Assembly (NCBI RefSeq): GCF_004010195.1 | Contig: NC_057753.1 | Location: forward strand, 1,433,246 to 1,475,748 | DNA: 42,503 nt | Source of the DNA: Chiloscyllium plagiosum | Lineage: Eukaryota | Direction of reading: 5' to 3' | In this document: positions 913-42,503 of the stretch, in pieces | Numbering within the stretch: the first letter of the stretch is position 1 | Layout: the number at the start of each line of letters is the position of its first letter | Position numbers and translations under genes: made by a program | The notes under the pieces: model-generated | What the model was told of the DNA's origin: nothing | The model's database searches: none | Seen by the model: only the letters and a program-made list of their open reading frames with translations

Positions 913-998
913 CACACCTGATGAAGGAGCAACTCTCTGAAAGCTATTGCTTCCAAATAAACCTGTTGGACTATAACTTGGTGTTGTGATTTTTAACT
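913..998 (+). mobile_element. Solo PLE terminal repeat, family B, with degenerate hammerhead motif (918-946)
   Basis: CACCTGATGAAGGAGC..CTCTGAAAGCTA..AATAAACCTGTTGGACTATAAC; homologous to 21428-21515 and 34058-34301. Confidence 0.7.
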
Positions 999-1184
999 AA
1001 TTTATTTATTGCCTTTCTTTATCCCTTCTGCTACAATACCTCACCAAACTATGAGGGAGGCATGCCCTGGAATTTGAAAATTAAGTGTATTTTTGATCAA
1101 GGATTTTGTTTTGTGAATGGGGAGTGAGATGAGAATTGTTTCATTTGGGTGGGAAATGACGGATAACGTTTGGGAGAAGATTTG

Positions 1185-1650
1185 AAGCTTGGGTGCTCGT
1201 TGTTGTGGTTCTGTTCGCCGAGCTGGGAATTTGTGTTGCAGACGTTTCGTCTCCTGTCTAGGTGGGAGCCTCCTGTGAAGCACTTCTATGATGTTTCCTC
1301 CAGCATTTGTAGCGGTTTGAATCTGTCGCTTCCGGTTGTCAGTTCTAGCTGTCCGCTGCAGTGGTTGGTATATAGGGTCCAGGTCGATGTGCTTATTGAT
1401 TGAATCTGTGGATGAGTCAATGCCTCTCGGAATTCCCTGGCTGTTCTCTGTTTGGCTTGTCCTATAATAGTAGTGTTGTCCCAGTCAAATTCATGTTGTT
1501 TGTCATCTGCGTGTGTGGATACTAAGATAGCTGGTCGTGTCGTTTCATGGCTAGTTGGTGTTCATGGATGCGGATCGTTAGCTGTCTTTGCGGATCGTTA
1601 GCTGTCTTCCTGTTTGTCCTATGTAGTGTTTTGTGCAGTCCTTGCATGGG
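1185..1650 (-). mobile_element. Penelope-like element fragment (GIY-YIG endonuclease region and 3' end)
   Basis: Minus-strand translation PCKDCTKHYIGQTGRQL..RIHEHQLA..HEFDWDNTTIIGQAKQRTAREF; paralogous to 10896-11555. Confidence 0.8.
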
Positions 1651-2156
1651 AAAAAAAAATGGATTTATTCAATCAAGTGAAGGGATTTATTCAATCGAGA
1701 GTCTGCTTACACCAAACACTCAGCAAATTCACGAGTAACTGCTATGATTAGCTGCCTCTCCTGCTTGGAAGAGAACCTCCTTCATTAGAATCTGTTTCTG
1801 CTAGTGTTAATAAACCCCACTTCAGTTATAGGTTTTTAATATTCTGGATATAAGTCAAATAAATTGGGTTTGTGTTTAACACTTGAGTTTTTTTTTGAGT
1901 ATCTCTAAGACCGTTCCTTTTAGAAGGGTTCTCCTCTCCCCTGGCTCCTACATCCTGACCTCGAACAATAAATGTGAGGAGCTCTCCGAGCTTCTTTGTC
2001 ACTGAGCTTGAGAGAATCCAATAATGTCCTTCTGCTGCATTCCTCTCTTCTACTAACCGCTGGGCCAAATTCATTCAAACATTTCTCCTTGTCTTAGTCC
2101 TGAACTTGCATCTTTTTCCAGTTTATTTTTCTCATCATGTCCTGTCAGACTTAACT

Positions 2157-2475
2157 GGGCAGCACAGTGGTTGAGTGGTTAGCGCCGCTGCCTCAGCGCT
2201 AGGGACCTGGGTTTGGTTCCACCTTGGGCAACTGCCTGGGTGGAATCTGCATGTTCTCCCCCTGTGTCAGTGTGGCTCCCCGCTCTGAGTGCTCTGGTTT
2301 CCTCCCGCAGTCCAAAGAGGTGCAGGTTAAGTGGGTTTGCCAAGCTAAAATTGCTCAGTTTCCAGTAATGTGCAGGCTCAGTGGATTTGCCACAGGAAAT
2401 ACAGGGTTAGGAGGCTGGGGTGGGATGCTCCTCAGACATGGACTCAAAGGGCTGAATTATCTGCTTCCACACTTC
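2157..2475 (+). mobile_element. HE1-like tRNA-derived SINE
   Basis: GGGCAGCACAGTGG..AGTGGTTAGC head, GGTTTGGTTCC B-box variant, CTCTGGTTTCCTCCCGCAGTCCAAAG core. Confidence 0.8.
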
Positions 2476-2484
2476 TTTTGATTT

Positions 2485-2808
2485 TAGATTGGATTCCCTA
2501 CAGTGTGGAAACAGGCCCTGCGGCCCAACAAGTCCACACCAACCATCTGTAGAGTAACCCACCCAGACCCATTCCCCTACTTGATATTTACCCCTGACCA
2601 TTGCACCTAACACTGCGGGCAGTTTAGCATGGCCAATTCACCTGGCCTGCACATCTTTGGAGTGATGGGAGGAAACTGGTGCACCCGGAGGAACCCCACG
2701 CAGACACTGGGAGAGTGTGCAAACTCCACGGACCACGTCTGAAATCAAACCCGGGTCCCTGCCGCTGTGAGACAGCAGTGCTAACCACTGAACCTCCATG
2801 CCGCCCAT
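2485..2808 (-). mobile_element. HE1-like SINE
   Basis: Reverse complement of head, core and GGGCCTGTTTCCACACTGTAGGGAATC tail. Confidence 0.88.
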
Positions 2809-3160
2809 AAGGAATCTATGAAGCATGGACCATCCAACTGCCCTGTCTTTTAACTGATATTGGTCATGGCCTTCTCTCCTTCCTCGTTCACCATCATCGG
2901 GTATCCTGAGGAAAAAAAACAAGCACTCCATCTCCACTCCCTTTCCTCTTTCACGTGCTTGGGTGTCCCCCAAGGGAACCTCCATGCCGCCCATAAGGAA
3001 TCTATGAAGCATGGACCATCCAACTGCCCTGTCTTTTAACTGATATTGGTCATGGCCTTCTCTCCTTCCTCGTTCACCATCATCTGGTATCCTGAGGAAA
3101 AAAACAAGCACTCCATCTCCACTCCCTTTCCTCTTTCAGGTGCTTGGGTGTCCCCCAAGG
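2790..3160. repeat. Near-identical tandem duplication, about 186 bp x2 (2790-2975, 2976-3160)
   Basis: GAACCTCCATGCCGCCCATAAGG...TGTCCCCCAAGG repeated directly; explains the repeated peptide in ORF 2638-3111. Confidence 0.92.
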
Positions 3161-3400
3161 AGCAATCCTTGGCCCCTGCCATTTCTCATCAGGTTGCTGT
3201 CACAAGGTGATATCATCCAAAAGCACCAAAAGTGTTAGTTTTCACTTGGACACTGTAAACACCCAGCTTTATCTCACCACCATTCCTTTCCATACCTCCA
3301 CTGCCACAAAATTATTAAACTTCTTTTGCCTCTTCCAAAAGGTCACTGTCTTTGGTCACTGTTATAAACGAAAATCGCTTCTCAATAATCGCTCTAGACA
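3140..3400 (+). mobile_element. Old L2/CR1-clade LINE RT fragment
   Basis: GVPQGAILGP motif followed by a degenerate DTQLY-like segment. Confidence 0.55.
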
Positions 3401-3532
3401 AATTCAGGAAAACAAAGTTTTATTAGCAAGTCTGCAGAGTTGGGCACTCTTCTGAGAAAAAGCGCGCTGAGGCTTACAAAGTCTCCCATTATATACAGCA
3501 CAAATCCCTCCTCTCCTTGGCTCCAACAAGCG

Positions 3533-3660
3533 AATGGGAAGGGTTTGGAGGGATATGGGCCGGGTGCTGGCAGGTGGGACTAGATTGGGTTGGGATACCT
3601 GGTCGGCCTGGACGGGTTGGACCGAAGGGTCTGTTTCCGTGCTGTACATCTCTATGACTC
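3533..3660 (+). mobile_element. CR1/HER1 3' UTR fragment
   Basis: GGAAGGGTTTGGAGGGATATGGGCC..GGACCGAAGGGTCTGTTTCCGTGCTGTACATCTCTATGACTC. Confidence 0.85.
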
Positions 3661-3685
3661 AATCTTCAGAAGGTTGTTCGTGTGA

Positions 3686-3813
3686 GGTCCTGAAGAAGGG
3701 TTCTGTCTGAAACGTCAACTCTTGCTCCTCGAATGCTGCCTGACCTGCTGTGCCTTATTCCAGTATGAAACTTTACCAGCTCTGACTCTCCAGCTTCTGT
3801 AGTCCTCACTGTC
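3686..3813 (+). mobile_element. Solo PLE terminal repeat, family A, with weakened hammerhead motif (3690-3716)
   Basis: CTGAAGAAGGG..TCTGAAACGTC..ATGCTGCCTGACCTGCTGTGC..CAGCTTCTGTAGTCCTCACT. Confidence 0.7.
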
Positions 3814-3949
3814 CCCAACAAGTTGTTGGTCTGTACCTGCTACTGAAACTCTCTTCCATGTCTGTTTTGCCTTTGACTTGATTCTAATACATTCCTGACC
3901 AGTCTCTCTCAGTCAACCTGCCTACACCTGGAATCATGAGAATTTTGTG

Positions 3950-4240
3950 GATGACATGGCAGCTCAGTGGTTAGCACTGCTGCCTCACAACGCCAGGGAA
4001 CCCAGGTTCGATCCCAGCCTCTGGCGACTGTCTGTGTGGAGTTTGCATGTTCTCCCCATGTCTGTGTGGTTTTCATCTGGGTGCTCTGGTTTCCTCCCAC
4101 AGTCCAAAGTTGTGTAGGTTAGGCGCATTAGTCAGCGGTATATGTAGAGTAATAGGGAATGGGTCTGGGTGGGTTACTCTTTAGAGGGTTGGTGTGGACT
4201 TGTTGGACCTAATGGCCTGTTTCCAGATTGTAGGGATTCT
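3950..4240 (+). mobile_element. HE1-like SINE
   Basis: GCTCAGTGGTTAGCACTGCTGCCTCAC..GGTTCGATCCC head, core and tail. Confidence 0.88.
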
Positions 4241-4576
4241 GTGATCCAAAACTCTCTTTCCTGGGTCTCGCATTAAGTCCCCTTCACCCAACACCCCTGT
4301 ACTTGCTGACCAATGTTGGCTCCTGGGTAAGTAATGCCTCAAATTTAAAATTAATATCTTTGTTATTAACTCCCTCTGTGGCCTTACCTTTGTCATCTAC
4401 AATCACATCACCATCTGAAAGGTCCTGCAGCCCTCTTTGGGGCCTCCCTAATTTTAATTACTTTAGCAATCGTGTCCATGACTCTGAGGCTGAAAAATTC
4501 CTAACCTAAACCCCTCTTTCCTGATTAAAGATATTTAAGCATCTTTCCTAAAGTCACCTTCTCTTAATTGGTTTTT

Positions 4577-4905
4577 AGATTAGATTACTTTAGATTAGAT
4601 TAGATTACTTACAGTGTGGAAACAGGCCCTTCGGCCCAACAAGTCCACACTGACCCGCCGAAGCGTAACCCACCCATTCTCGTACATTTACCCCTTTACC
4701 TAACTCTACGGGCAATTTAGCATGGCCAATTCACCTTACCTGCACATCTTTGGACTGTGGGAGGAAATCGGGGCACCCGGAGGAAACCCACGCAGACACG
4801 GGGAGAATGTGCAAACTCCACACAGTCAGTCGCCTGAGTCGGGAATTGAACCCAGGTCTCTGGCGCTGTGAGGCAGCAGTGCTAACCACTGTGCCATCGT
4901 GCCAC
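4577..4905 (-). mobile_element. HE1-like SINE (young subfamily, (TCTAA)n tail)
   Basis: Full-length; highly similar to the copy at 38349-38658. Confidence 0.9.
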
Positions 4906-4929
4906 AGCATGATGTCAAATGTTTCTTCA

Positions 4930-5330
4930 TAAAACTGCTCTGAAACATCTGGAAACATTTTATTGTGATGTGCAAAACTGAGGGGTATAGACAGGGTAGA
5001 CTGGAAGAAACCTTTCCCTTTGGTGCAGTGATCAATGACTGGAAGCATAGATTTAGCTAAGGGGCAGGAGGTGCAGAAAGGATGTGAGCAATTTTTTTTT
5101 AAACCAACCAGAGGATGGTGGGAAATCAGGAACACAGTGCCTATAAGGGTGGTGGAAGCAGCGAACTTCCAATATTTTAATGTTAGATGTACACTTATGA
5201 TGCCAATGCATCATAAGTGTACATCTTATGGGCTTTGGGCCAAGAGATGGAAAATGGGTTTGGAATAGTTAATTGTTTCTGACTGCCACAGACTCAGTGG
5301 GGAAACAGGCTTTTTACAGTGCTGTAGATC
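4930..5330 (+). mobile_element. Diverged CR1 3' fragment
   Basis: GAGGGGTATAGACAGGGTAGAC..TTTTTT..CCAGAGGATGGTGGGAAT..AGGGTGGTGGAAGCAG pattern. Confidence 0.6.
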
Positions 5331-5349
5331 TCCAATTGTGGTACGTGAA

Positions 5350-5630
5350 TACAAAGGGTTTCTGATCTGTGGCACCAGTTTGCTCACAGTGAGATTCCAA
5401 AAAGAACAACCCCAATGTGTGTCCAGTTCTTTTGGTGTCAGGTAAAACACAAATGTTGGTCTCCGTGCATCAGGAGAACTCCTCTATGGACGGTGTGTGA
5501 AGTTGCTCAGGCCTCCTGAACGGAGAGCGGGAACATTGAGCTGTTGGTGCTGCAACAAGTTTTGAAGAGTCACTCCCAGGGATCTTTCCACGTCATTCAT
5601 CGACTCCCAGCTGCAGTAAAGCAGGTCATG
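5350..5630 (-). pseudogene. Possible highly decayed C2H2 zinc-finger remnant
   Basis: Minus strand GGAAAG..AACTTGTTGCAGCACCAACAG (NLLQHQ) and CAGAAACCCTTTGTA (KPFV), with broken spacing. Confidence 0.3.
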
Positions 5631-6099
5631 CGGAATAACAATCACAATGTCACCTTGCCAGCAAAGTCCGCAACTTTTAATTACAGACAAAGTTCTGGTG
5701 TTCATTTTGCCCCTCTTACAGTTTCAGAAGTTAATTCAGTCAATGATTTGGATTTTTGAGTGAGGCGAGGCAGAATAAATTAAATGGTATGATTTTTAAC
5801 AGAATGACCTGGGAATATGGTGGAGCTGAGTTTTGAAAAAATTATTATGTCCTCAGTTTCACTAGTGGATACAAAATAGATGAGAGCATGAAGTTATACT
5901 GAATTAATGTAAATCATTGGTGGATCCTCAGTTGAAATATTATGTTCAACTCTGAGCACCAGACTTTAGGAATGATCTCAATATCTTTGAGAGGGTGTGG
6001 GGATGATTTCCCAAAATAGTATCAGCGGTGAGTGTTTTTGGATCAATACAGTCTGGAGAAGGTGGGTTCACTCTCTGCAGAGCACAAAGGACGTCTGAC

Positions 6100-8820
6100 A
6101 ATTAGGAGACGTTCAAGAGTGTGATAACGAGAGTTCAGAGGCATTCTGTTCCTGTTAGTGAAGGGTAAGGCTGGTAAGACTAAGGAACAATGGATGAATA
6201 AAGATTCATGATGAGGACCTCAGGATAAAAAGAGGGAATCTTATTTTAAATACCGACAGCTTGGTTCAATTGAATCTCTTAATCTGTATAAATAATGTAG
6301 GGGCACTCTTAAGAGAGAAATCAGGAAGGCGAAGAGGGGATATGAAATAGCATTGGCGGTTAAGGCTAATCCAAAGAAATTCTCCAAATATATTAAGAGC
6401 AAGAGGATAACTAGAGAGAGGGTAGGGCCTCTTAAAGATGAAGGAGGTTGTCTTTGTGTTGAACCCCAGGAAATGGGAGAGATACTAAATGAATATTTCA
6501 CTTCAGTTTTTACAGTGGAGGAAGAAATGGAGTCTAGAGAATGTAGAGAAATAAACTTTGATGTTTTAAAACAGTTCACTTGACAGAAGAGGAAATTTGG
6601 GAGGTCTTGGAGAATATAAAAGATGGATGAATCTCTGTGTGGGATATAGGTAAAGTAGTGTTACTTCTGCAATTATAATTACTTATGCAAGGTAAATGAA
6701 CTCACACCAGTGTGTAATTGCTTCAACTAAGAGCTGAGCCAACAAGAATGCAAACTATGTGGAAGAAATACATAATTGTTTTTGTATTAGCTAAAATTGT
6801 ATGCAAGAATGAAACGTGACAGCAAAACAATGGTAGATGTTACAGAAAAATAGATAAGGTGCTGTGAGGATGTAGGTTAAGCCAGATATGCTTGCACAAG
6901 CAGTAGTTATAAGCATCTGTTTTCCACTTTTACAGAAATATAGGAACAAACCCCAATTAAAAGGTCATAAGGATCAGTATGGTTGGGGAAAGCACACATG
7001 GAGGGAGTAGATAATGGTGGAGAAAGGATATACCTAACAATGGGCCACAGCGGGATGTGGTCAAATGGCCTTGAGGCCAGAAATAAGCATTTTGTCACAG
7101 ACAAGAGATAAACAGGAGTAATGGGTGCCGGTCTTAGAGAAGTGTAAACGGGGAGGAGCAATGGGATTAAAAAAAGGAACTAAATTACATAGATATCGTG
7201 TATTAGTTGAATTGTGTGTGTGTGTGTGTCCCTGCCTTGTAGACAGTGGACATCGCACCCTCTTGCAAGAGTAAAATAAATGACACTACTGATTCAGATC
7301 TTGGCTCGGACTGAAATTATTGAAGAGAGTGAGCTTTGTTTCTCACGTCTGGGACCTGATCTAATGTATCCCAAAATGTTGTATGAAGCGAGATTACGAG
7401 ACTGCGTGCAGAAATATTTGCATCATCTATAACTATGAGTGAGGTGCCTGATGACTGGAGGTTGGCTAATGTTGCACTCTTGTTTAAAAAAGGTTATAAG
7501 GAGAAACTGAGGAAATATAGACATGTGAGTCTGACTTTGGTTGTGGGTAAATTGTTGTAGGTGATTATAAAAGATAGGATTTATGGACATTTAGAGAGGC
7601 AAAAATTGATTAGGGATAGTTAGTGTGGTTTGGTATGAGGAAAATAGTGTCCCACAAACTTGAGTTTTTTGAGGAAGTTACCAACAAGATTGGTAGTGAA
7701 GTGGATGTTTATTTGGATTTTAGTAAAGCCTTTGACAAGGTTCCACATGGTGGACTAACTCAGGGTGACCTTGCCAATTGGATACATAATTGGCTTAACA
7801 GTAGAAGACCGTGTGATAGTGGATGGATGCTTTTCAGACTGGAGGCCTGTTCCACGGGGATTGGTTCTGGGACCTCTTAGTATTTGTATGAAGGATTTGA
7901 ATGAGAATATAGAATGTGGTTTGTAAGTTTGCAGACTACGCCAAAATTAGTGGCATAATAGACTGCGAAAAAGGCTTTCTAGGATTACAAAGGGATCTTG
8001 ATAAAATAGGTCAATGGGCTGAAAAATGGCAGAGAGAGTTCAATCAAGATCGATTTGAGGTATTGCATTTTGGTGGAACAAACAAGGGGAGGGCTGATTA
8101 AAATTAACGGTACGGCCTTGGGTAGTGTTATAGAACAGAAGGACCAAGGGGTGCAGGTAAATAATTCTTTGAAGTTTGAGTCACAAATGGAGAGGGTGGT
8201 TGAAAAGGCAATTGGCATGCTTGCCTTCATTGCTCAGTCCTTTTGAGTACAGGAGTTGGGAAGTCACGTTGTGGTTGTATAGGACATTGGTGAGGCTTCT
8301 TCTGGAATACTGTGTCCAGTTCTGGTCACCTAGTTACAGGAACGATATTAGCAAGCTGGAGAGGGTTCAGAAGAGATTTGTCAGGTATGGAAGGTTTGAG
8401 CTTTAAAGAAAGGCTTGATGGGCCAGGACCTTTTTTCATTGGACCTTAGGAAGTTGAGAGACGACTTGATAGAAATTTCTAAAATAATGAGAGGTATAGC
8501 TGGAGTTAATGGTAGTTGCCTTTTGCCTCGGATGAGGATTTCAAGACTGTGGGCATATTTTTAAGGTGAGAGGAGAGAGATTTAGAAAAAGAGATACATC
8601 TTTTACATAGAAGGTCGTTCGAGTGTGGAATGAATTTCCTGAGGGAAGTGGTGGATGCAGGTACAATTACAATGTTAGACATCTGGATAGATACACAAAT
8701 ACGAAAGGTAAGGAGGGATACGGGCCAGGAGCAGGTAGGTGAGACTAGTTTAGTTTGGGATTATGTTCAGCATGGACTGGTTGGACCGAAGGGTCAGTTT
8801 CTGTGCTGTATGACTGACTC
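6100..8820 (+). mobile_element. Long decayed CR1/HER1 LINE (ORF2 RT through 3' UTR), interrupted by a solo LTR
   Basis: KANPKKFSKYIKSKRITRERVGPLKD, VDVYLDFSKAFDKVPH, KFADYAKI, EYCVQFWSP across several frames. Confidence 0.92.
6638..7347 (+). mobile_element. Solo LTR of an ERV or LTR retrotransposon, about 710 bp
   Basis: Termini TGTGGGA...TCTCAC(G); TCTG duplicated at 6634-6637 and 7348-7351; AATAAA at 7275-7280; CR1 sequence resumes on both sides. Confidence 0.7.
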
Positions 8821-8882
8821 TGAGACCAAAACTGCCGCAGTGCTTCTAACCAAGTGTCCATACAATTGAAGCAGGACTTAGC

Positions 8883-9274: not shown

Positions 9275-10130
9275 ACAGCAATTCCGTCATCTCCAGCAGG
9301 GTGCCACTACCAGACCCCTATTCCCCTCTCCTCCCTTATCAGTGTTCCGTAGTGGCTGTTCCATCCAGGACACCGTGGTCCACTCCTCCTCCACACCCAA
9401 CACCTCCCCACGGCACCTTGCAAAGTAATAGCAGAAGACTTTACACCTACGCGTTTACTTCCTACCTTCTCACTATCCAAGGGGCTAAACTCACCTTTTC
9501 AGGTGAAGCAGCGCTTAATCTGCACTTCATTCAATCTGGTCTACTGTAATCGCTGCTCACAATGTGGTCTCTTCTGCACTGGGGAGAGCAAATGCATTCT
9601 GGAACACCACTTTGCAGAACATCGATCCGAGCTTCCAGTTACCTGTCACATCAACACACCACCACGTTCGCTGGCCAATCTTTCTGTCTTGTGCCTGCTG
9701 CAGTGCTCCAGTGATGCCAGGTGCAAACCGGAAGAGCATCTCATTTTCCATTTGGGGACCCTGAAGTCTTTCGGACTTGTATATATGAGTTCAATAAGCC
9801 GAACACCACCTTTTCATGTCCTTTACCTCCCACCACAACCCCTTATCGTCACGTGGGCTGCTTATATCACAGCCAAACCACTGTCACCTACTTATCGTCT
9901 CCATTTGCAGCTTATCTTTCTCCCTGGATCACCATTATCCATCCCTATGTTTGCCCTGATGTCTTTATTTCCCCCTGGGCTCCTAATGCACGTATTCCTT
10001 ACCACCTCCACTATCTTCAGCATATATACCACCTTTTCCTAGCTGCTACCAGTTCTTGAGAGACTGGAAACATTGACTGTGCTTCCTCTCCACATATGCT
10101 GCCAGACCTGCTGAGTTTCTCCAGCAGTCA
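9275..10130 (+). mobile_element. Penelope-like element 3' part (GIY-YIG region plus decayed terminal repeat)
   Basis: ORF 9503: VKQRLICTSFNLVYCNRCSQCGLFCTGESK..FAEH..EEHLIFHLGTL; ends GAAACATTGAC..ATGCTGCCAGACCTGCTGAG. Confidence 0.78.
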
Positions 10131-14911: not shown

Positions 14912-14912
14912 T

Positions 14913-15384: not shown

Positions 15385-15605
15385 CGAGTGTGGTGCTGGG
15401 AAAGCACAGCAGGTCAGGCAGCATCTGAGGAGCAGGAGAATCAACGCTTTGGGCAGACGCCCTTCATTCATTCCCGATGACTCACTGGTTTACGCTTGAA
15501 ATGTCGATTCTCCTGCTCCTCGGATGCTCCCTGACCACCTCTGCTTTTCCAGCACCACACTCTCGACTCTAAAGCACTGCATCTGCAGTCCTCACTTTCT
15601 CCTCC
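15385..15605. mobile_element. Palindromic PLE-derived mini-element, family A (diverged)
   Basis: Inverted arms GTGGTGCTGGGAAAGCACAGCAGGTCAGGCAGCATC / GATGCTCCCTGACC..GCTTTTCCAGCACCAC; the right arm carries the extra tail. Confidence 0.8.
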
Positions 15606-19369: not shown

Positions 19370-19501
19370 GAGGAGAAAGTGAGGTCTGCAGATGCTGGAG
19401 ATCAGAGCTGGAAATGTGTTGCTGGAAAAGCACAGNNNNNNNNTTTTCCTGTTCCCTGGATGCTGCCTGACCTGCTGCGCTTTTCCAGCAACACATTTCC
19501 A
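19370..19501. mobile_element. Palindromic PLE-derived mini-element, family A (centre collapsed into N at 19436-19443)
   Basis: Inverted arms; ACTTTGAAAAAGT duplicated at 19357-19369 and 19502-19514. Confidence 0.85.
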
Positions 19502-19886
19502 ACTTTGAAAAAGTAACCAGGAAATGTTCTAAGTTGTCATAAAATCCCACTTGATGTCCTTCAGGAATGGGAACTTGCCACTCAGTCTGGGCTCACACAA
19601 GACTCCATTCTCTGTGGGAGAAGTCAGAGAGATAGATAGGAGGGAAGGATTATACGCACCTACAAGTTGATTAGAATTTTGACAAAACCTCCCAAGCTCC
19701 ACCAGCTAGGTCACACACTTTCCTAACTTGTCTGACATCTGTTTGTGGATGAGCAGAAGTTTCCTTCATTTATATTGGGAAGATTGTCTTCAGTCCTCAC
19801 CACAAACTCCATTCCAATCTCTGGGAATTGTCTGAGGCCGAATCAGGCTTTGCATAACCCTGGTGAAATACCCTATCCCAAGATGA

Positions 19887-21271: not shown

Positions 21272-21480
21272 TGTAGAAGCCTGCGACAGCTCAACTGAAA
21301 TAAAAATCATTAAGAGAGGAGGTACAGCAACTGAAATGGGCATCTAAATTGTCCAACAAGCAAAATATGCTGGGAATACCTGAGCTAAGACATGATGTGG
21401 AGATGTCGATGTTGGATTGGGGTGGACAAAGTTAAAAAAATCACAACACCAGATAATAGTCCAACAGATTTATTTGGAAG

Positions 21481-21515
21481 TACTAGCTTTCGGAGCCCTG
21501 CTCCTTCATCAGGTA
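21481..21515 (-). ncRNA. Minimal type I hammerhead ribozyme motif (family B, intact)
   Basis: TAC-CTGATGA-A-GGAGC AGG GCTCC-GAAAGCTA-GTA; stem I TAC/GTA, 5-bp stem II, palindromic AGCT. Confidence 0.78.
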
Positions 21516-21929
21516 GCTGTGGAGCAGGACCATAAGACAGAATTTATAGCAAAAGTTTGCAGCGTCATGCAACTGGAACAATATATTGAACAAATCTAGA
21601 TTGCTGTTAAGTCTTTCATCTTTTAGAATGGGTTGCAGGTTTCGGTTCATTAATACGTAAATCCCAGAACTTCTTTTAAGTCTCATTCTTGAGATAACTT
21701 CATTCTTAATAAAAAAGTTAACATCTCAGCTCTGACAATGTATTAAATGCGTGAGGTTAGACTCTGTGTGTATCCCAATCTTGAGTCAGACTGGTTCTAC
21801 TTCCAAAATAGAAATTTAAGAAATGTTATATGGATTGACGGCCTGCATTAACTGCCTGCAGATTGTGTGCTTTTTCAGCATAATAGAATGTATCTGCAAA
21901 TGGAAATTCACCCATAGACGTGTGGGTGT

Positions 21930-22320: not shown

Positions 22321-22724
22321 TCAGGTTCCTAAAGAATCGGACGTTAGCAATAGAGTTGTTAAATCTGCTGGACTATAACCTGGTGCTGTGAGATTTTTAA
22401 CTTTGAGATGAGAGATACACAAGAGACAATTCTGCCTGGGGGGTTGGTGGCGCAAGTCCTTGCAAGATCCAAGCCCAGACAATTGAAACTAGAGAGGCAC
22501 CAGAACACCTCAGGAAGTGTGAAAGGGTGATTCAACTCTTCCTGACAAACAACAGTAGATGCATGGGGCAGACTTGCCTCAGTAAGACAAAAGTCCAGGT
22601 GGATACAGCACTCTGGGATAAACCAAGATTTGTAGGCCCCAAGAGCAGACGCATCAAAGGGGTTGCTGTTAAGCAAGCCATCGAGAGCCTTTAGCAGCAT
22701 TTTAAGGTGAAAAAGCCAATTAAT

Positions 22725-24540: not shown

Positions 24541-24711
24541 GGGTGAAAGTGAGGACTGCAGATGCTGGAGATCAGAGTCAAGATTAGAATGGTGCTGGAA
24601 AAGCACAGCAGGTCAGGCAACATCTGAGGAGCAGGAGAATCGATGTTTCGGGCAAAAGCCCTTCATCAGGATTTCTGATGAAGGGCTTTTGCCCGAAATG
24701 TCGATTTTCCT
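24541..24711. mobile_element. Palindromic PLE-derived mini-element, family A, with head-to-head hammerheads; cut by the gap
   Basis: GATGTTTCGGGCAAAAGCCCTTCATCAG-GATTT-CTGATGAAGGGCTTTTGCCCGAAATGTC. Confidence 0.85.
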
Positions 24712-25141: not shown

Positions 25142-25421
25142 GAGAGGGGGTGTGAAGAAGGCTTTTGGCATGTTTGCTTTTCTTGGCTAGAGAATTGAGT
25201 ATAGGCGTTGGGATGTCTTGCTGCAGCTGTACAATGCATTGGTGAAGTCACATCTGCAGGACTGCATGCAGTACTGGTCACCCTCCGATAGAAAAGATAT
25301 TAACAAACTAGGAAGAGTTCAGAAAAGATTTACTAGGATGCTACCTGCATTGGAAGGTTTGGGTTATAAGGACAGGTTGGGTAGGCTGGAGCTTAGGAGA
25401 CTGAGGGGTGACCTTATAGAG

Positions 25422-25514
25422 CTGAAAATGTGTTGCTGGAAAAGCACAGCAGATCAGGCAGCATCCAGGGAACAGGAGAATCGACGTTTCGGGCATAAGC
25501 CCTTCTTCAGGAAT
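25422..25514 (-). mobile_element. 93-bp solo PLE terminal unit with intact hammerhead (25483-25510)
   Basis: GTGACCTTATAGAG duplicated at 25408-25421 and 25515-25528; minus strand reads CTGAAGA-A-GGGC TTAT GCCC-GAAACGTC. Confidence 0.88.
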
Positions 25515-26313
25515 GTGACCTTATAGAGGTCTATAAAATCATGAGAGGCATACATAAGGTAGATAGCCAATAGCTTTTCCCCAGGTTAGGGAAATCTAAA
25601 ACTGGAGGGCACAGGTTTAAGATGAGGGGGGGAGAGATACAAAAGGGTCCAGAGGGGCAATAGTTTCACTCGGAGGGTGGTGAGTGTGTGGAACAGGCTG
25701 CCAGAGGGAGTGGTGGAAGCAAGTCCAATTTCACCATTTAAGAAACATTTAAACAGATACAGGGAATGGGATAGGTATGGAGGAATATGGACCAAATGCA
25801 GGCAAATGGGATTAGTTAAATTGTGAGAAGTGGTCAGCATGGACAGGTTGGGCCAATGGGCTGGTTTCCATGCTGTAACCCTCTATTTCCCTATGACTCT
25901 ATTTCCGGTATCTCTAGTCCCAACTGCCCCCTTCTCTCTGTGACCTCTCACTTTCAGACCCTACAGCCATCGAGCTGTGACCCCTGACCCTTCTTTGTTT
26001 TCTCTGCTGGGTGTTGGCAGGGGGTGAAGAAAAGACAGCAGGAATTTCTCTGACCTGTGATTCACAAGGATACTCCCTGCTGCCCTCAGCAGTTACTTTC
26101 CTTCAGTCATTTTCTCACTAACCCTAAACTCTCCTGTTTGCTCTTAATTCTGGTGTTTCTGTCACTTTCACAATTATAGACATAAACGTCACACATTAGA
26201 ATCAAACCGCTTCTGTCATTCTGTCTGATTGAAGTTGGTATTGTCGTTAATAACAGACAAACTATCCTTTTCCCTGGAGTTTCCAATGAAGTGCAGTGGA
26301 CAGTCTTATCAGT

Positions 26314-29122: not shown

Positions 29123-29348
29123 ATTTAGTTTAAGGTGAGGGGGAAAGATTTAAAAGAGATCTAACAGGCAGGGTGGTGCGTGTATGGAATGAGCTACCAG
29201 AGGAAGTGATGGAGGCTGGTACACTGACAGCATTGAAAAGGCATCTGGATGTGTGCATGAATAGGAAGGGTTATATAAGCACTGGGATAGACAGGCACAA
29301 GTCTGGAAGAACACAGCAGGCCAGGCAGCATCAGAAGGTGCAGCAGTT

Positions 29349-29375
29349 GACGTTTCGGGTGTAACCCTTCTTCAG
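29349..29375 (-). ncRNA. Minimal hammerhead ribozyme motif
   Basis: CTGAAGA-A-GGGT TAC ACCC-GAAACGTC; stem II compensatory relative to GGGC/GCCC. Confidence 0.72.
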
Positions 29376-29465
29376 GACTCAGGTTGGGTGTAAGGGGGAG
29401 CTGCAGATAAACAGGTAGCGGGTACGACCTGGTTGGTCAGTGGGAGGAATGAATTCGGTTTTTTT

Positions 29466-29772: not shown

Positions 29773-30139
29773 TTGATGGCAGGGAGCAGTGGTAGAGGGT
29801 AGGGGCTGGGAAGAGAGTCGGGGGATGGGGAGGGAAGTTATTTGAAAGTGGAGAACTCAATGTTGAGTCCTTTGGGCTGTAGGGTGCTCAGGCGGAAAAT
29901 AAGGTGTGTTCTTCCAAGAGGAGCTGTGGTTTATTGTGGCAATGGAGGAGGCCGAGGATGGTCATGTTGGAAAGGGAGCAGTTGGAGGAATTGAAATGGG
30001 CGGTGACTGGGAGATCCAGTCGGTCTCTGCGGGCCCGGTTTCGATGCTCGGTGAGCCATTCCCTGAGCATGCGTTCGGTTTCCTGAATGTAGAGAAGACC
30101 ACATCGGGAGCACCGTATGCAGTAAGCTAGGTTGGAAGA

Positions 30140-33459: not shown

Positions 33460-33686
33460 GTGGAGAAAGTGAGGACTGCTGATGCTGGAGATCAGAGTCA
33501 AAACGTGTGGCACCAGAAAAGCACAGCCGGTCAGGCAGCATCCGAGGAGCAGGAGAGTTGATGTTTCGAGCATAAGCTCTTCATCAGGAATGTCTGTTGA
33601 AGAGTTTCTGCTCGAAACATTGACTCTCCTGCCCCTCGGATGCTGCCTGACCGGCTGTGCTTTTCCGGCGCCACACGTTTTGTCTC
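33460..33686. mobile_element. Palindromic PLE-derived mini-element, family A
   Basis: Inverted arms; hammerhead motifs at 33560-33587 (-) and about 33594-33621 (+); AGCCTCCTGC duplicated at 33450-33459 and 33687-33696. Confidence 0.85.
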
Positions 33687-34041
33687 AGCCTCCTGCACTG
33701 TTTCCATCCAGCTCAACGGGAGCTCGAGGAACAGCAACTCACCTGTTGATTCGACGCTTGATTACCCTCATAGCGTTTCCAAAAGTTGAGAGGTGCTGGC
33801 ACCAACTGGAAGGTCCGGAGAATGGTGGGTGAGGGAGGAGACCTCCTGCAGCAACACCAAGACGGGCCCAGCACGGACTCTCCCCAGCTCGTAGTCTCCT
33901 GGCGAAGTGAGAAGCAGGTCGCACAGGCTAGGCCGAGGCTCCAAGTCTGCTGCTAGGCCCGAAGGAGGAGAAGTGACAGTCTCCCGGTGTGGTGGTCCTG
34001 TTCCGGTACCTATGATGGCGGGGGGGGGGGTTGCCCGGTAT

Positions 34042-34304
34042 TCGACTGGGATGGAGAAAGTTAAACATCACACATCACCAGGTTACAGTCCAACGGGTTT
34101 ATTTGGAAGCATTAGCTTTCAGAGCGCCGCTCCTTCATCAGGTGGTTGTGGAAGCATACCCTGAGACACAGAATTTATAGCAAAAGGATTCCAGTGTCAG
34201 GGGGATGTGATACAGTAAAACGAAGGCGCAGCGCTCCGAAAGCTGATGCTTCCAAGTAAACCTGTTGGACTACAACCTGGAGTTAGGTGATGTTTTAACT
34301 TGTA
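34042..34304. mobile_element. PLE family B mini-element with inverted termini
   Basis: AAGTTAAACATCACA..CCAGGTTACAGTCCAAC..GGAAGCATTAGCTTTC inverted at 34236-34301; CCGGTAT at 34035-34041 and 34305-34311. Confidence 0.78.
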
Positions 34305-34639
34305 CCGGTATGGCAGCCTTGTTCCAGCTTAAGAGAACTTGTCCCTGTGTAGAAGTGCTCTTCAGCTTCCAGGTAGGCCAGTGGCCTGGCCGGCCATCTC
34401 ACCCAGGAGTGGCAATCTCGGCCTGGCAAGGCAGTCTTCTTCAGTGGAGGCTTCCGGCCCAGTATTCCAGCCACCTGGCATGGCGGTATCATCCCAGAAT
34501 GCCACTGTCATCCCGGCTGCATCTTCCATTGTTCCTTAATCAGCTTCCCCTCCACCCCCATTTCCCGCCCAGGAGCCGTTAACTGAACTGTGATGAACTT
34601 TTGTCCCAGTTTGACATTTTTCGTATTATCATGTATGAA

Positions 34640-35088: not shown

Positions 35089-35136
35089 TTAAGGTAGGAA
35101 GCAAAGTCCATTCCCTACTTGCCCTCAACTGTCGAT

Positions 35137-35218: not shown

Positions 35219-35250
35219 AAAACCACATAAAGGGTTTTGTTTCTTCCTGT

Positions 35251-35835: not shown

Positions 35836-36502
35836 ATGATGAGCAGGGATTTAGGAGTGACAAAATGTTGGAGAGGAATGGGATATTTGAGACAGGGTAG
35901 TTGGTTGCAGAGATGATAGAGGCAAGGATGTGCTTTTTGCCAGAGAGGTGATAATGCCTCAGTTGAGGGAGGTGGTGGAGGAGGGAGAGGGAGAGAGAGA
36001 TAAAGAGAGAGACACACACCAGCATCAACCAATTCAGTGAATGTGTGGAGGTTGTGTGACCACTTCTGGCCATAGGGTTGAGGAAGCAGGAGATGGGTTC
36101 CATGGACAAGTTGTGCAAGAAGGGAATATACAAGAAGGCGGGTGAGAAACTGAATGAAGGTGTGGGTTCAAATCTTGACAAAGGGCGGTTTCGAGGCAAT
36201 TTTGCCCAGAGGGCTAGTTCAGACAAAGGAAAGCAACAGAGGCAGCTGCTCAGATTGTCTCAATCTTAGAATCAAACATGAGCTCCTTGCATTTCCTGTC
36301 ACGGCGAGAATGGAGAAGGTAGGGGGCGAGGAAGAGCCTTTCATAAAGAACTGTCTTGTAATCCAGACTTCATGTTCTGCGTGTTTAACACAAAGCTAAT
36401 TTATTTAACTTTTCAGCACAATAATGGATGTGAAACTTGATTGAGGTTCATCACCATTATGTGAATCAGAGCCCACTGAACCGGGCTCACTCATAGATCT
36501 CG

Positions 36503-39979: not shown

Positions 39980-40670
39980 ACATAGAGTCACACAGCTTGG
40001 AAACTGACCCTTTGGTCTAACCAGTCTACGCTGGACATTATCCCAAAATAAACCAGTCCCACCTGGCCTGCTCCTGGCCCATATCCCTTCAAACCTTTCC
40101 TATTCATGGACTTATCCAAGTGTCTTTTAAATATTTTAACTGTGTCCACATCCACACTTCCTCAGAACGCTCATTCCACACGCGAATCATTCTTTGTTTA
40201 AAAACAAATACCCTCATGTCTTTTTTATATTTCTCTCCTGCCACCTTAAAAATATGCCCCGTATTTTTGAACTCCCTCATCCTAGGCAAAAGACATTAAC
40301 CCAATTGATACCCCTTATGATTTTGTAAATCTCTGTAAGTCACCCCTCAACCACCCGAACTCCAGTGAGAAAGGCTTTCTGTACAACTCAAATTGTCCAG
40401 TAACATCCTGGTTAATCTCTCCTGAACCCTCTCCAGCTTAATAATATCTTTCCGAGAACAACCACAGTATCCGAGAAGAGGACTCACCAATGTTCTGTGC
40501 AAACTCAACATGACTTCCCAACTCTTATACTCAAAGGATTGTTCAATGAATGCAAGCATGCCTTCCCTTTTTAACTACCCCGTCTATGTGACCCAAACCT
40601 CAAAGCATTATGTACCTGAACCCTTGGGTCCCTCTGTTCTACAAGAGTAGCCAAGACCCTGCCATTAATT
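39980..40670 (-). mobile_element. CR1/HER1 3' fragment in the ZNF pseudogene
   Basis: MLAFIEQSFEYKSWEVMLSLHRTLVSPLLGYC..KLERVQERLTRML; RVWNE. Confidence 0.88.
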
Positions 40671-40985
40671 GTGTTGGTGGGAAAGCAGTTCCCATGAATT
40701 TTTAGAGGCTTGTTTAAAAGTTAGTGTGAACATGTTGGTGTCTTAGCAGAATGGAAGAAGAAGTGAAGCCCTTCTTACATGCAGAGCAGGATCCTCCCCA
40801 GTTATGATGATGGCGATGTGTTTCCAGTTTAGTCAGGCATATGAATCCAACCCCACAGTCTCCACATTTCCACAGTTTCTCCCCACCGGGTGAATGTGTT
40901 TATGTCTTGACAAGCCAGATGATTGGCCAAATTCTTGTCCACAAAGCAGAACACGTGTACGGTTTCCGCCCAGTGTGAACAAAGA

Positions 40986-41165
40986 ACACTTACAGCCCAG
41001 GAACCGGCCCTTTGGCCCACCATGCCTGAGCCGATCCAAATCCCCTGTCTAAACCTATCACCCAATTCCTAAGGATCTGTCTCCCTCCGTTCCCCACCTA
41101 CTCGTGCATCTGTCCAGACGCACCTTAAATTAATCTACCGTGTCTGCCTCTACTACCTCTGCTAA
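40986..41165 (-). mobile_element. CR1-type 3' UTR tail in the ZNF pseudogene
   Basis: Minus strand GAGGTAGTAGAGGCAGACACGG..GGTGGGCCAAAGGGCCGGTTCCTGGGCTGTAAGTGTTCT. Confidence 0.75.
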
Positions 41166-41872
41166 TGTGGTGGGATCCTTTTCCTTCCATGCTCAAAATC
41201 TGGGGATATTCAGGTTATGTCACACTGGGGGAGGGAGAGTCTGTCAGATCCTGACGGGATGTTTGGTTTCATGTTCCTGGCAGCAAATCCTCCCCTTCTA
41301 ATACCCTGTGGAATTGATTTAAAAGAGAAAGAAAATTGTGGGGGGTGGGGGAAAGTGATAACTGACAATAATCACAAAGCTGGGTTGCGAAACAGACTGA
41401 ATGAAGCTGATAATTTGTGGGATGGGCACAAGGGGGAAAAAAACACGACCATTAACGTTTATAGGCACTCATAAAAAGCCAGTTGTTCACAAGTCTCCTT
41501 TGGGGGCCGGAGAACTTGCCTCCTTTTTGGACATAGAGAAGACGGTCCACACCATGGGAGGAGAGAAAGCCACCTGGACAGGCAGGGAGTGCAAGAGAGA
41601 GATTTTATAAATCTACAAACCAAGTGGAGGATCAATAGAATCTCAAACCCTCACCATCCACTGACAAGCAGAGCCAGGGTGGCGGGTTTATGTGAGAAGT
41701 CACATCTCATCCTGCCTTGTCTGACATCCAGCACTGGATGAGCTGAAATTACCTCCATGTTAAATATTGGGAAGGCTGACATTATTCTCCTCAGTTCCCC
41801 ACTACAATGTGCGCTCTCTCGTCACCCACTCCATTCCTCTCCTTGATAATTCTGAGTCTGAACCAGACTCTT

Positions 41873-42092
41873 TGAGGAGAAAGTGAGGTCTGCAGATGCT
41901 GGAGATCAGAGCTGAAAATGTGTTGCTGGAAAAGCGCAGCAGGTCAGGCAGCATCCAGGGAACAGGAGAATCGACGTTTCAGGCATAAGCCTGATTCCTG
42001 AAGAAGGGCTTATGCCCGAAACGTCGATTCTCCTGTTCCCTGGATGCTGCCTGACCTGCTGCGCTTTTCCAGCAACACATTTTCAGCTCTGA
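41873..42092. mobile_element. Young palindromic PLE-derived mini-element, family A
   Basis: Perfect 75-bp inverted arms at 41906-41980 and 42018-42092; TCTGAACCAGACTCTT at 41857-41872 and 42088-42103. Confidence 0.92.
41998..42025 (+). ncRNA. Minimal type I hammerhead ribozyme motif (intact)
   Basis: CTGAAGA-A-GGGC TTAT GCCC-GAAACGTC; predicted GUC cleavage after 42025. Confidence 0.78.
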
Positions 42093-42268
42093 ACCAGACT
42101 CTTCACAAACAAGGTGAACTATTTCACCACAAGATGACCTTCCAACCACACATCCCCTGCCACAAAGCTGGTTCTTTTTTCTAAAGGCTGTTCCTTTTCT
42201 CAAGGACACTGTGTCCTTGGTTTTTTTTCAGAGAGGTTGTAAAAAATACTCTGGGCTCCAAATTGGCT

Positions 42269-42503
42269 GGGAGAAAGTGAGAACTGCAGATGCTGGAGAT
42301 CAGAGCTGAAAATGTGTTGCTGGAAAAGTGCAGCAGGTCAGTCAGCATCCAAGGAGCAGGACAATCGACGTTTCGGGCATGAGTCCTTCTTCAGGAATGA
42401 GGAGAGTGTGCCAAACAGGCTAAGATAAAAGGTAGGGAGGAGGGACTTGGGGGAGGGGCATTGGAAATGCAATAGGTGGAAGGAGGTTAAGGTGAGGGTG
42501 ATA
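42269..42503 (-). mobile_element. PLE family A 3' end running off the window; hammerhead at 42367-42394
   Basis: Same terminal repeat, continuing into a purine-rich element body. Confidence 0.85.

What the first reader, a model, noticed from the sequence alone, without database searches (positions are those of the whole stretch)
918..42394. About a dozen minimal hammerhead ribozyme motifs with stem covariation across two repeat families
Seen: the motif CTGA[T/A]GA-A-[stem II]-GAA-[4-nt palindrome]-H recurs at 918, 3690, 13690, 24675, 33594, 41998 (+) and 21484, 24642, 25483, 29349, 33560, ~34113, 42367 (-). Stem II covaries between copies (GGGC/GCCC, GGGT/ACCC, GAGC/GCTC, GGAGC/GCTCC). The helix III position is ACGT in family A and AGCT in family B, both self-complementary, and the non-palindromic family A variants (ATGT, ACAT) are simple CpG decays. 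Established: Penelope-like retroelements carry minimal type I hammerheads that lack helix III and are thought to cleave as dimers. Inference: two otherwise dissimilar PLE families here retain the same catalytic fold, at roughly one motif per 3-4 kb.
Basis: partly seen in the sequence, partly recalled or inferred. Interest (0 to 1): 0.85.

Follow-up and report, generated by a model that had tools for sequence, protein, structure and literature searches.

The report
Penelope-element hammerhead stubs in shark DNA
The repeated hammerhead-ribozyme motifs are real, but they are the worn tail ends of Penelope-like jumping genes that litter this shark genome, a kind of element already described in other animals.

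Summary
Of the 13 listed sites, 12 keep both catalytic boxes, and 8 pass a strict minimal-hammerhead descriptor against 0.005 expected by chance. I mapped 21 units at 15 insertion sites in the window.

The units are 5'-truncated 3' modules of Penelope-like elements (PLEs):
- Family B sits in 229-bp direct repeats around a PLE reverse-transcriptase ORF (locus L062).
- An A-like core and tail lie contiguous with a GIY-YIG endonuclease remnant (window 9276-10140) in at least five other genomic copies.
- Both families show the PLE insertion signature: variable 5' truncation, head-to-head inverted partners, target-site duplications, and an optional 33-37-nt 3' tail.

Genome-wide there are about 160,640 A-type cores and 16,625 exact B cores.

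Stem II covariation is real at subfamily level: the compensated GAGC/GCUC form has 1,865 copies against about 60 expected. Individual copies decay neutrally.

I found no sign of in vivo cleavage. Neither copy 5' ends nor RNA read ends pile up at the predicted cut site. Copy 5' ends cluster instead at the 5' edge of the core.

This is a new member of a known kind, and the scan already found it on other DNA of this genome.

The parts
915..998 (+). Family B stub (-3 to +84 relative to core start, short 3' end). Core 918-946. Stem II is decayed (GGAG/CUCU with G.U).
3688..3816 (+). A3-like unit, long (tailed) form. Core 3690-3716. Stem II is reduced to G.U pairs (GGGU/GUCU).
9276..9778 (+). GIY-YIG endonuclease and linker remnant of an older PLE. 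It lies within the stop-to-stop frame 9353-10042.
   Evidence: tblastn with PLE proteins, E down to 7e-9; the unit through 10140 recurs contiguously in the genome
10046..10136 (+). Decayed hammerhead position plus A-like tail of the same older PLE, about 230-270 bp after the EN remnant.
   Evidence: aligns to decayed GGGUC/GACC-type cores in L066 and L067
13557..13784 (+). A1 unit with 133 nt of upstream element sequence (cut by an N gap), short 3' end. Core 13690-13717 is fully canonical.
15389..15603 (.). Head-to-head pair of A units with decayed cores: 15389-15470 on - (short end) and 15487-15603 on + (long end).
19371..19508 (.). Head-to-head A2 pair whose centre (the cores) is lost in an 8-N gap. 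The - arm is long and the + arm short. It is flanked by a 13-bp direct repeat.
21391..21689 (-). Family B unit with about 170-187 nt upstream and the long (tailed) 3' end. Core 21484-21512 is fully canonical (GGAGC/GCUCC, AGCU, A17).
22359..22407 (+). Family B fragment (+41 to +89), truncated 3' of the hammerhead.
24542..24711 (.). Head-to-head A pair. The - arm is 24542-24671 (long end, core 24642-24669, helix III ACAU). The + arm is 24671-24711 (core 24675-24702, AUGU) and is cut by an N gap.
25418..25515 (-). A2 stub (-5 to +92) inserted into another repeat. Core 25483-25510 is fully canonical. A direct repeat of up to 14 bp lies at its ends.
29303..29383 (-). A3 unit. Core 29349-29375 is fully canonical with the compensated stem GGGU/ACCC.
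29909..30139 (-). GIY-YIG endonuclease remnant upstream, on the same strand, of the 29375 core. A tRNA-derived SINE (about 29462-29775) separates them. Contiguity is plausible but not shown.
33462..33675 (.). Head-to-head pair. The - arm is 33462-33592 (long end, core 33560-33587, compensated GAGC/GCUC, helix III ACAU). The + arm is 33594-33675 (short end, core decayed to CUGUUGA). It is flanked by a 10-bp direct repeat.
34035..34305 (.). Family B head-to-head pair. The - arm is 34035-34197 (core 34113-34141, G.U at 10.1/11.1, 57 nt upstream). The + arm is 34222-34305, truncated at +5. A 7-bp direct repeat lies at the ends.
41875..42105 (.). A2 head-to-head pair. The - arm is 41875-41991 (truncated at +9, long tailed end). 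The + arm starts at 41990 (core 41998-42025, fully canonical, short end near 42093). It is flanked by a 10-bp direct repeat.
   Evidence: RNA loose ends at 41875, 41911, 41994 and 42083
42270..42439 (-). A2 unit with 45 nt upstream and the long end. Core 42367-42394 has one stem II mismatch (GGAC/GCCC).

Best explanation
The motifs are the minimal type I hammerheads (min-HHR) of Penelope-like retrotransposons.

Shown here:
- Each motif opens a short 3'-terminal module: about 4 nt of helix I, the core, then about 85-95 nt, optionally plus a 33-37-nt tail.
- In a full element this module lies in the pseudo-LTR, just upstream of the ORF start.
- Individual genomic copies decay neutrally.

Inferred, by analogy with the Anolis Poseidon element (PMC11167929):
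- Reverse transcription starts at one of two internal sites near the 3' end of a more-than-unit-length RNA. That gives the short and long (tailed) ends.
- Copying usually aborts early, leaving 5'-truncated stubs.
- Both cut DNA strands can prime, which would give the head-to-head pairs inside a single target-site duplication.

Why the motif persists:
- It is kept across otherwise unalignable families because it is maintained in the active master elements.
- Compensated stem II variants mark separate master lineages.

- The palindromic ACGU/AGCU lets two copies build helix III and cleave after GUC or CUA, probably with help from the element's protein.
- The Anolis paper found that cleavage is not needed for insertion in vitro.
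For: Minimal-hammerhead features are met: CUGANGA and GAAA boxes, a bulged A before 10.1, G10.1-C11.1, a self-complementary 15.1-16.1 tetrad and H17. The criteria come from PMC4209133 (main text read).

Link to PLEs:
- L062 has two family-B cores inside 229-bp direct repeats (94% identical) around RT ORF pieces.
- Those pieces are 40% identical to residues 160-649 of a full-length RT+GIY-YIG protein.
- The tail sequence is the read-through of the 5' repeat up to an ATG.
- EN remnants lie upstream on the same strand of B cores in L037, L031 and L035.
- In the window, EN remnant 9276-9778, a decayed core and an A-like tail form one unit. It aligns end to end in at least 5 of 40 scored genomic copies.

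Insertion signature:
- Upstream homology ranges from 0 to 531 bp.
- 3' ends are bimodal. A1: 9 of 15 at 79-93 and 4 at 126-127. A2: 9 of 15 at 85-95 and 4 at 124-126. B: 16 of 30 at 78-88 and 6 at 122.
- The window has 6 head-to-head pairs.
- Direct repeats of 7-14 bp flank 5 of 10 insertions examined.
- RNA loose ends fall at the same boundaries.

Covariation:
- GAGC/GCUC has 1,865 copies. The singles have 2,826 and 2,486. That gives about 60 expected doubles on about 117,000 wild-type copies.
- In 71 distinct aligned A copies, 5 of 7 pairs change on both sides against 1.1 +/- 0.9 in shuffles (0 of 500 shuffles reach it).

Abundance: 160,640 A-type cores (control 48), 46,872 exact A cores and 16,625 exact B cores (controls 0), and 39,941 first-look RT candidates with all 135 scored being strong.
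Against: - No Rfam hammerhead model matches, even in permissive mode. This is expected for motifs that lack helix III.
- Helix I is only about 3 bp in every family.
- Folding energies are not unusual (z -0.2 to -1.5), and the lowest-energy dimer is not the active one.
- The L062 element lacks the endonuclease.
- No full-length family-A element with RT and EN was recovered.
- The EN remnant at 30139-29909 is separated from the 29375 core by a SINE, and contiguity was not shown.
- Among tail-selected copies the core is not better conserved than the tail: 11.1% against 6.0% divergence, with 47 of 64 keeping both boxes.
- No footprint of cleavage was found. Only 1 of 74 copy 5' ends lies at +27..+31. 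No pile-up of read ends appears in poly(A) single-cell RNA reads.
- Five of the 10 insertions examined showed no direct repeat of 7 nt or more.
Confidence: 0.88

Rival explanations
1. The roughly 90-125-nt units are not randomly truncated PLE copies. They are full-length copies of a short RNA that spans from the hammerhead's 5' edge to the RT start site. That would make them a SINE-like minimal template, mobilised in trans by PLE proteins.
For: 36 of 74 unbiased copies have their 5' end within -10..+12 of the core start. Only 5 fall in -50..-11 and 7 in +13..+60. 9 of 30 pattern-selected A loci start 0-8 nt before the core. In Anolis the RNA needed for insertion lies just downstream of the hammerhead (PMC11167929, passages).
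Against: - 26 of 74 copies extend more than 50 nt upstream, with a continuous spread of lengths, so truncation certainly occurs.
- No RNA reads start at that edge in the one raw RNA run that covered it. Reads run on into flanking sequence.
- No internal promoter was identified.
- Some rows are not independent (overlapping loci, tandem copies).
Confidence: 0.2
2. The units are non-LTR retrozymes: tandem hammerhead repeats that spread through circular RNAs.
For: Animal retrozymes carry type I hammerheads, and a 2026 preprint argues they derive from PLE pseudo-LTRs (10.64898/2026.07.22.740005; abstract and passages). L064 holds two tandem 356-bp units, each with a B core.
Against: No window copy is in a tandem array. 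All are single stubs or inverted pairs with direct repeats at the ends, tails and 5' truncation. The motifs lack helix III and the loop contacts of canonical retrozyme hammerheads. L064 also has an inverted partner, which fits a PLE partial tandem.
Confidence: 0.05
3. The conserved motif is not used as a ribozyme in these elements. It is kept as a protein-binding or RNA-dimerising structure of the PLE RNP. The hammerhead-like core would then be an inherited relic with little or no cleavage.
For: - In vitro activity of metazoan PLE min-HHRs is very low, even as dimers (PMC4209133).
- Catalytic mutants of the Anolis element insert normally, and no RNA-seq reads end at its cut site (PMC11167929).
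- Here there is no cleavage footprint in copy ends or RNA reads.
- Helix I is only about 3 bp.
Against: All catalytic core positions are kept across unalignable families. Stem II is maintained by compensation. The helix III tetrad stays self-complementary in two different forms, ACGU and AGCU, which is what catalysis as a dimer requires. The Anolis motif does cleave when its protein is present.
Confidence: 0.25

Closest known systems
Minimal hammerheads (min-HHR) in the pseudo-LTRs of metazoan Penelope-like elements (Cervera and de la Pena 2014, PMC4209133; dimer cleavage: Lunse, Weinberg and Breaker, seen only as reference 134 of PMC6765202)
   Same: Type I core, a bulged nucleotide before stem II, G10.1-C11.1, no helix III but a palindromic 15.2-16.2, short helix I, several consensus families per genome with compensatory changes, mostly dispersed single motifs or opposite-strand pairs from truncated PLEs, and location in the pseudo-LTR.
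   Different: The host is a shark; no paper I could search describes shark PLE hammerheads. Copy number is far higher than the 4,000-9,000 reported there for coelacanth and Xenopus. Stem II is 4-5 bp, against 7-8 bp in Schistosoma. Helix I is only about 3 bp.
Poseidon element PAc of Anolis carolinensis (PMC11167929)
   Same: The hammerhead lies at the pseudo-LTR/ORF junction. Genomic copies have two alternative 3' ends 30-40 bp apart (the 'tail'). No RNA reads end at the cut site.
   Different: In PAc the ORF starts at stem II, and the RT start sites lie 170-235 nt into the ORF. In shark family B the tail ends at the ATG, about 120 nt after the core start. The biochemistry (two RT start sites, both DNA strands extended, protein-assisted cleavage) is known only for PAc.
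General PLE insertion anatomy (Craig et al. 2021, PMC8557442, passages)
   Same: Heavy 5' truncation, partial tandems forming pseudo-LTRs, an adjacent inverted 5'-truncated copy, and a 30-40-bp tail often at only one end. In 4 of 5 window pairs with both ends visible, one arm is long and the other short.
   Different: Most copies here are extreme stubs of about 90-125 nt, and their 5' ends cluster at the hammerhead's 5' edge. The passages I read do not mention this.
Non-LTR retrozymes of animals (PMC7229834, search listing only; preprint 10.64898/2026.07.22.740005)
   Same: Type I hammerheads in short non-coding repeats, likely derived from PLE pseudo-LTRs.
   Different: Retrozymes are tandem arrays that produce circular RNAs and carry canonical hammerheads with helix III. 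The window copies are dispersed, flanked by target-site duplications, and minimal.

Membership tests
PLE minimal hammerhead (min-HHR) | Catalytic boxes CUGANGA and GAAA, then U16.1 and H17 | tested here: met
   12 of the 13 listed sites keep both boxes. 8 pass the strict descriptor against 0.005 expected.
PLE minimal hammerhead (min-HHR) | Unpaired nucleotide between A9 and 10.1, and a G10.1-C11.1 pair | tested here: met
   All 8 descriptor hits need the one-base bulge (an A). 10.1/11.1 is G-C in 5 of them and G.U (CpG decay) in 3.
PLE minimal hammerhead (min-HHR) | No helix III hairpin; self-complementary 15.1-16.1 tetrad that allows a dimer | tested here: met
   ACGU in family A and AGCU in family B. 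The non-palindromic window variants are ACAU and AUGU. In 100 genomic cores, 31 of 33 non-ACGU forms are CpG transitions.
PLE minimal hammerhead (min-HHR) | Short helix I of 4-5 bp | tested here: inconclusive
   Family A has G-C, A-U, U.U, U-A. Family B has 3 bp (GUG/CAC). In the aligned A copies, 88% of helix I cells are paired. This is shorter than the 4-5 bp consensus, but Drosophila virilis has 2 bp (PMC4209133).
PLE minimal hammerhead (min-HHR) | Consensus families with covariation in stem II | tested here: met
   The compensated GAGC/GCUC subfamily has 1,865 copies against about 60 expected. GGGU/ACCC, GGAGC/GCUCC and GGGUC/GACC forms exist. 5 of 7 pairs change on both sides; 0 of 500 shuffles reach this (the alignment is fitted to the model and includes pattern-selected rows).
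PLE minimal hammerhead (min-HHR) | Location in the pseudo-LTR of an element encoding a PLE-type RT (with GIY-YIG EN) | tested here: met
   Family B: L062 direct repeats around the RT, and EN remnants upstream in L037, L031 and L035. A-like: the EN-UTR-core-tail unit recurs contiguously. No intact full-length A element was recovered.
PLE minimal hammerhead (min-HHR) | Self-cleavage, as a dimer | not testable with these tools
   This needs transcription and cleavage assays. Indirect footprints were absent.
Penelope-like element insertion | Optional 30-40-bp tail at the 3' end (two RT start sites) | tested here: met
   3' ends are bimodal, 33-37 nt apart, in A1, A2 and B. RNA loose ends lie at 41875 and 41911.
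Penelope-like element insertion | 5' truncation, with an inverted 5'-truncated copy adjacent, inside one target-site duplication | tested here: met
   Upstream lengths of 0-531 bp. 6 head-to-head pairs in the window. Direct repeats of 7-13 bp flank 4 whole pairs, and one of up to 14 bp flanks one single stub. 5 of the 10 insertions examined have none of 7 nt or more.
Neptune/Nematis clade of PLEs | CX2-5CxxC Zn-finger-like linker between RT and EN | tested here: inconclusive
   The 40%-identical relative P0014 shows C-x5-C-x2-C just before its GIY-YIG domain. In L062 this region is frameshifted and interrupted by a stop. No phylogeny was made.
Non-LTR retrozyme | Tandem arrays of hammerhead-bearing units giving circular RNA | tested here: not met
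   No tandem array in the window. One two-unit tandem was seen elsewhere (L064). Circular RNA was not tested.
Rfam hammerhead families | Match to a curated hammerhead covariance model | tested here: not met
   0 matches at gathering score, and none among 13 matches at E up to 10. These models require helix III.

The most novel reading that the evidence does not exclude
The module from the hammerhead's 5' edge to the RT start site may be the element's self-contained RNP-binding and priming unit. The hammerhead fold, possibly as an RNA dimer held by a dimeric protein, would then act as a programmed stop or template-switch point for reverse transcription and not mainly as a cutter. That would explain three observations:
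- Half of all copies begin within about 10 nt of the core's 5' edge.
- Inverted pairs join at that edge.
- No copy ends or RNA ends mark the cleavage site.
Probability: 0.15. Interest if true: 0.6.

Novelty: new member of a known kind. Interest (0 to 1): 0.25.

Why it matters
The finding adds sharks to the animals whose genomes are peppered with Penelope-type minimal hammerheads. The scale is more than 10^5 motifs, over ten times the 4,000-9,000 reported for Xenopus and coelacanth in 2014.

It gives a large natural data set for asking what the motif does: bimodal tails, inverted pairs, a 5'-end hotspot and compensated subfamilies.

It does not reveal a new kind of ribozyme or element. For annotation, these stubs and hairpins should be masked as PLE fragments and not called as miRNA-like hairpins or novel ribozyme genes.

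Tried and rejected
- Rfam found no hammerhead hit at gathering score or at E up to 10. The only hits were sub-threshold miRNA-like matches to the head-to-head hairpins.
- A whole-genome DNA search with a 97-nt unit returned nothing, because very common words are skipped. I replaced it with pattern counts.
- A GIY-YIG Pfam search of the genome scored only 150 of 14,403 candidates and gave one weak hit. It was not useful.
- The '990-aa open frame' copy (L065) was an artefact of a 1,588-N gap.
- The contiguity test for window 30139-29303 failed. The scored hits were all to a tRNA-derived SINE inserted between the EN remnant and the core.
- Thermodynamic folding was uninformative: monomer z from -0.2 to -1.5 (one positive, +0.8), and the lowest-energy dimers are not the active dimer.
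- The weak model hit at 36415-36460 is a chance match.
- Sequencing runs: no RNA holder was listed.
- Read laying: run X20 gave 0 laid reads. X19 gave 2,203 reads with no place where many molecules begin or end. These are poly(A) single-cell libraries and are not suited to detecting cleavage ends.
- The core-versus-tail conservation test among copies showed no excess conservation. I rejected it as a test of function because inserted copies are dead on arrival.
- The Lunse et al. dimer paper (PMC5785218) is not held.
- Supplementary files of the papers, including the min-HHR species tables of PMC4209133, were not opened. They may list cartilaginous fish.

Full report
**Observation**

A search for CTGAWGA-N6-30-GAAA finds 14 matches in the 42.5-kb window against 2.24 expected; 0 of 100 shuffles reach 14. 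The thirteenth listed site, 33594(+), has a decayed core. The coordinates and predicted cut sites are correct.

A stricter descriptor follows the published criteria: both boxes, a stem II of at least 3 bp, a self-complementary A-NN-U, and H17. It gives 8 hits against a mean of 0.005 and a maximum of 1 in 200 simulated windows. Five sites are fully canonical: 13690+, 25483-, 29349-, 41998+ and 21484-.

Rfam does not see the motifs at gathering score or at E up to 10. That is expected, because these motifs have no helix III hairpin.

**Anatomy in the window**

Self-comparison and mapping with long reference copies give 21 units at 15 insertion sites.
- There are 16 A-type units and 5 B-type units.
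- Six sites are head-to-head inverted pairs.
- Each unit begins about 4 nt before the core. It runs about 85-95 nt past the core start (short form) or about 122-127 nt (long form).
- In 4 of the 5 pairs with both ends visible, one arm is long and the other short.
- Direct repeats of 7-14 bp flank one single stub (25418-25515) and four whole pairs, so each of those pairs is one insertion event. Five of the 10 insertions examined showed no repeat of 7 nt or more.

**Genome scale**

- The exact family-A 32-mer occurs 46,872 times and the family-B core 16,625 times. Reversed-pattern controls give 0.
- With stem, loop and helix III left free, A-type cores number 160,640 against a control of 48.
- That is about one motif per 20 kb genome-wide, so this window, at one per about 3.4 kb, is roughly six times denser.
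- Family A splits into subfamilies: A1 (U7, UUUU loop), A2 (A7, UUAU loop), A3 (GGGU/ACCC) and a GAGC/GCUC form. An older GGGUC/GACC type also exists.

**Link to Penelope-like elements**

Family B:
- Locus L062 carries two B cores on one strand inside 229-bp direct repeats that are 94% identical. Between them lie three ORF pieces.
- Those pieces align at 40% identity to residues 160-649 of P0014.
- P0014 is one of several relatives from sharks, turtles, Xenopus and invertebrates. Some of them combine RVT_1 with GIY-YIG.
- The L062 copy itself stops just before the endonuclease.
- Endonuclease-coding remnants lie a few hundred bp upstream, on the same strand, of B cores in L037, L031 and L035.

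A-type module:
- The window holds an endonuclease remnant at 9276-9778(+), followed about 230-270 bp later by a decayed core and an A-like tail.
- This whole 865-bp stretch aligns end to end in at least 5 of 40 scored genomic copies.
- In those copies the core position is a decayed GGGUC-type hammerhead.
- A second remnant at 30139-29909(-) lies upstream of the canonical 29375(-) core. A tRNA-derived SINE sits between them, and the contiguity test returned only SINE hits, so that link is plausible but not shown.
- I did not recover an intact family-A element.

**PLE-specific insertion signature**

- In 60 fetched loci, upstream homology ranges continuously from 0 to 531 bp, which indicates 5' truncation.
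- 3' ends are bimodal in all three groups, 33-37 nt apart.
- In L062 the extra 'tail' is the read-through of the 5' repeat into the internal region, up to an ATG.
- This matches the 'optional 30-40 bp tail' that the Anolis Poseidon study traces to two internal reverse-transcription start sites and calls unique to PLEs (PMC11167929, passages).
- It also matches the general picture of truncation, partial tandems and adjacent inverted copies (PMC8557442, passages).
- RNA reads give independent support for the boundaries. Loose ends cluster at 41875, 41911, 41994 and 42083.

**Covariation and conservation**

- Among 100 unselected genomic A-type cores, counted by eye, 73 have GGGC/GCCC. Of the other 27, 13 differ only by G.U pairs, 13 have a broken pair, and 1 is compensated. 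Inserted copies therefore decay neutrally.
- Tail-selected copies agree: the core is not better conserved than the tail.
- At the level of lineages, stem II is maintained. GAGC/GCUC occurs 1,865 times as one homogeneous subfamily. The two single changes occur 2,826 and 2,486 times, giving about 60 expected doubles.
- On 71 distinct aligned A copies, 5 of 7 pairs change on both sides against 1.1 +/- 0.9 in shuffles; 0 of 500 shuffles reach this. The alignment is fitted to the model and includes pattern-selected rows.
- The catalytic positions are invariant between families A and B, whose flanks do not align.

**Function**

Published work gives the following picture.
- Metazoan PLE min-HHRs cleave poorly and only as dimers (PMC4209133, main text; review PMC6765202, passages).
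- The Anolis motif cleaves with its protein present.
- It is dispensable for insertion in vitro.
- It leaves no RNA-seq ends at its cut site.

Here I looked for two footprints of cleavage and found neither.
- Only 1 of 74 unbiased copies has its 5' end at +27..+31.
- 2,203 poly(A) single-cell RNA reads laid on 41800-42503 show no place where many molecules begin or end. That library type is a weak test.

What I found instead is that 36 of the 74 copy 5' ends fall within -10..+12 of the core start, about ten times the density on either side. This is unexplained. Candidate explanations are a reverse-transcriptase stop at the folded or protein-bound motif, a short template RNA that starts there, or convergent priming from both DNA strands.

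**Verdict**

These are Penelope-type minimal hammerheads carried by several PLE lineages, mostly as dead stubs and hairpins. The kind is known. The shark host and the copy number are new details, and this scan had already reached the same reading on other pieces of this genome.

Noticed in passing
held loci L001-L064 and the window: Copy 5' ends cluster at the 5' edge of the hammerhead core. 36 of 74 lie within -10..+12, 5 in -50..-11, and 1 at the cleavage site. Some rows are not independent.
   Followed up: partly
window 15389-15603, 19371-19508, 33462-33675, 41875-42105, 34035-34305: In 4 of the 5 head-to-head pairs with both ends visible, one arm carries the 33-37-nt tail and the other does not. 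The family-B pair is less clear.
   Followed up: partly
window 29462-29775 (-): A tRNA-derived SINE of about 310 bp with A and B boxes and a (TCTAA)n tail, 90-94% identical to many genomic copies (13,410 first-look candidates). It is inserted between a PLE endonuclease remnant and the 29375 hammerhead. A related SINE lies in L037.
   Followed up: partly
window 35136-35219 (-): tRNA-Ala(UGC)-like sequence with a long variable region. ARAGORN calls it; Rfam tRNA gives 28.1 bits, just under the 29-bit cut-off. It may be a SINE head or a pseudogene.
   Followed up: no
window 31013-31576 (+) and 31965-32537 (+): RVT_1 (E 1.5e-7) and ALKBH8_N (E 4.8e-12) matches on one strand. This is probably a LINE-type retrotransposon remnant unrelated to the hammerhead units.
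   Followed up: no
window 12167-12695, 15822-16056, 16953-17259, 22887-23407, 25142-25810, 28412-28782: Another dispersed repeat family, 65-72% identical between copies. The 25418-25515 hammerhead stub is inserted into one copy of it.
   Followed up: no
L062 (G000:C1:13306500-13313500), minus strand 1889-4634: A PLE copy with both pseudo-LTRs and an RT in three frame pieces but no endonuclease. The ORF ends in a frameshifted, stop-interrupted linker region about 136 nt before the 3' hammerhead.
   Followed up: partly
L064 1219-1931: Two tandem 356-bp units, each with a family-B core, plus an inverted partner. This is the only retrozyme-like tandem arrangement seen.
   Followed up: no
window 41941-42057 and 33552-33628: The head-to-head pairs fold as long hairpins and draw sub-threshold miRNA-family hits in Rfam (mir-3127 at 36.9 bits, mir-1305 at 25.7 bits). 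Such hairpins could be miscalled as miRNA precursors or feed small-RNA pathways.
   Followed up: no
runs X1 (organism A) and X4 (organism C): Contigs from runs labelled as a second organism carry the same A2 units: 500 of the 2,387 laid pieces are 99% identical or more. The family is therefore shared with at least one related species label.
   Followed up: no
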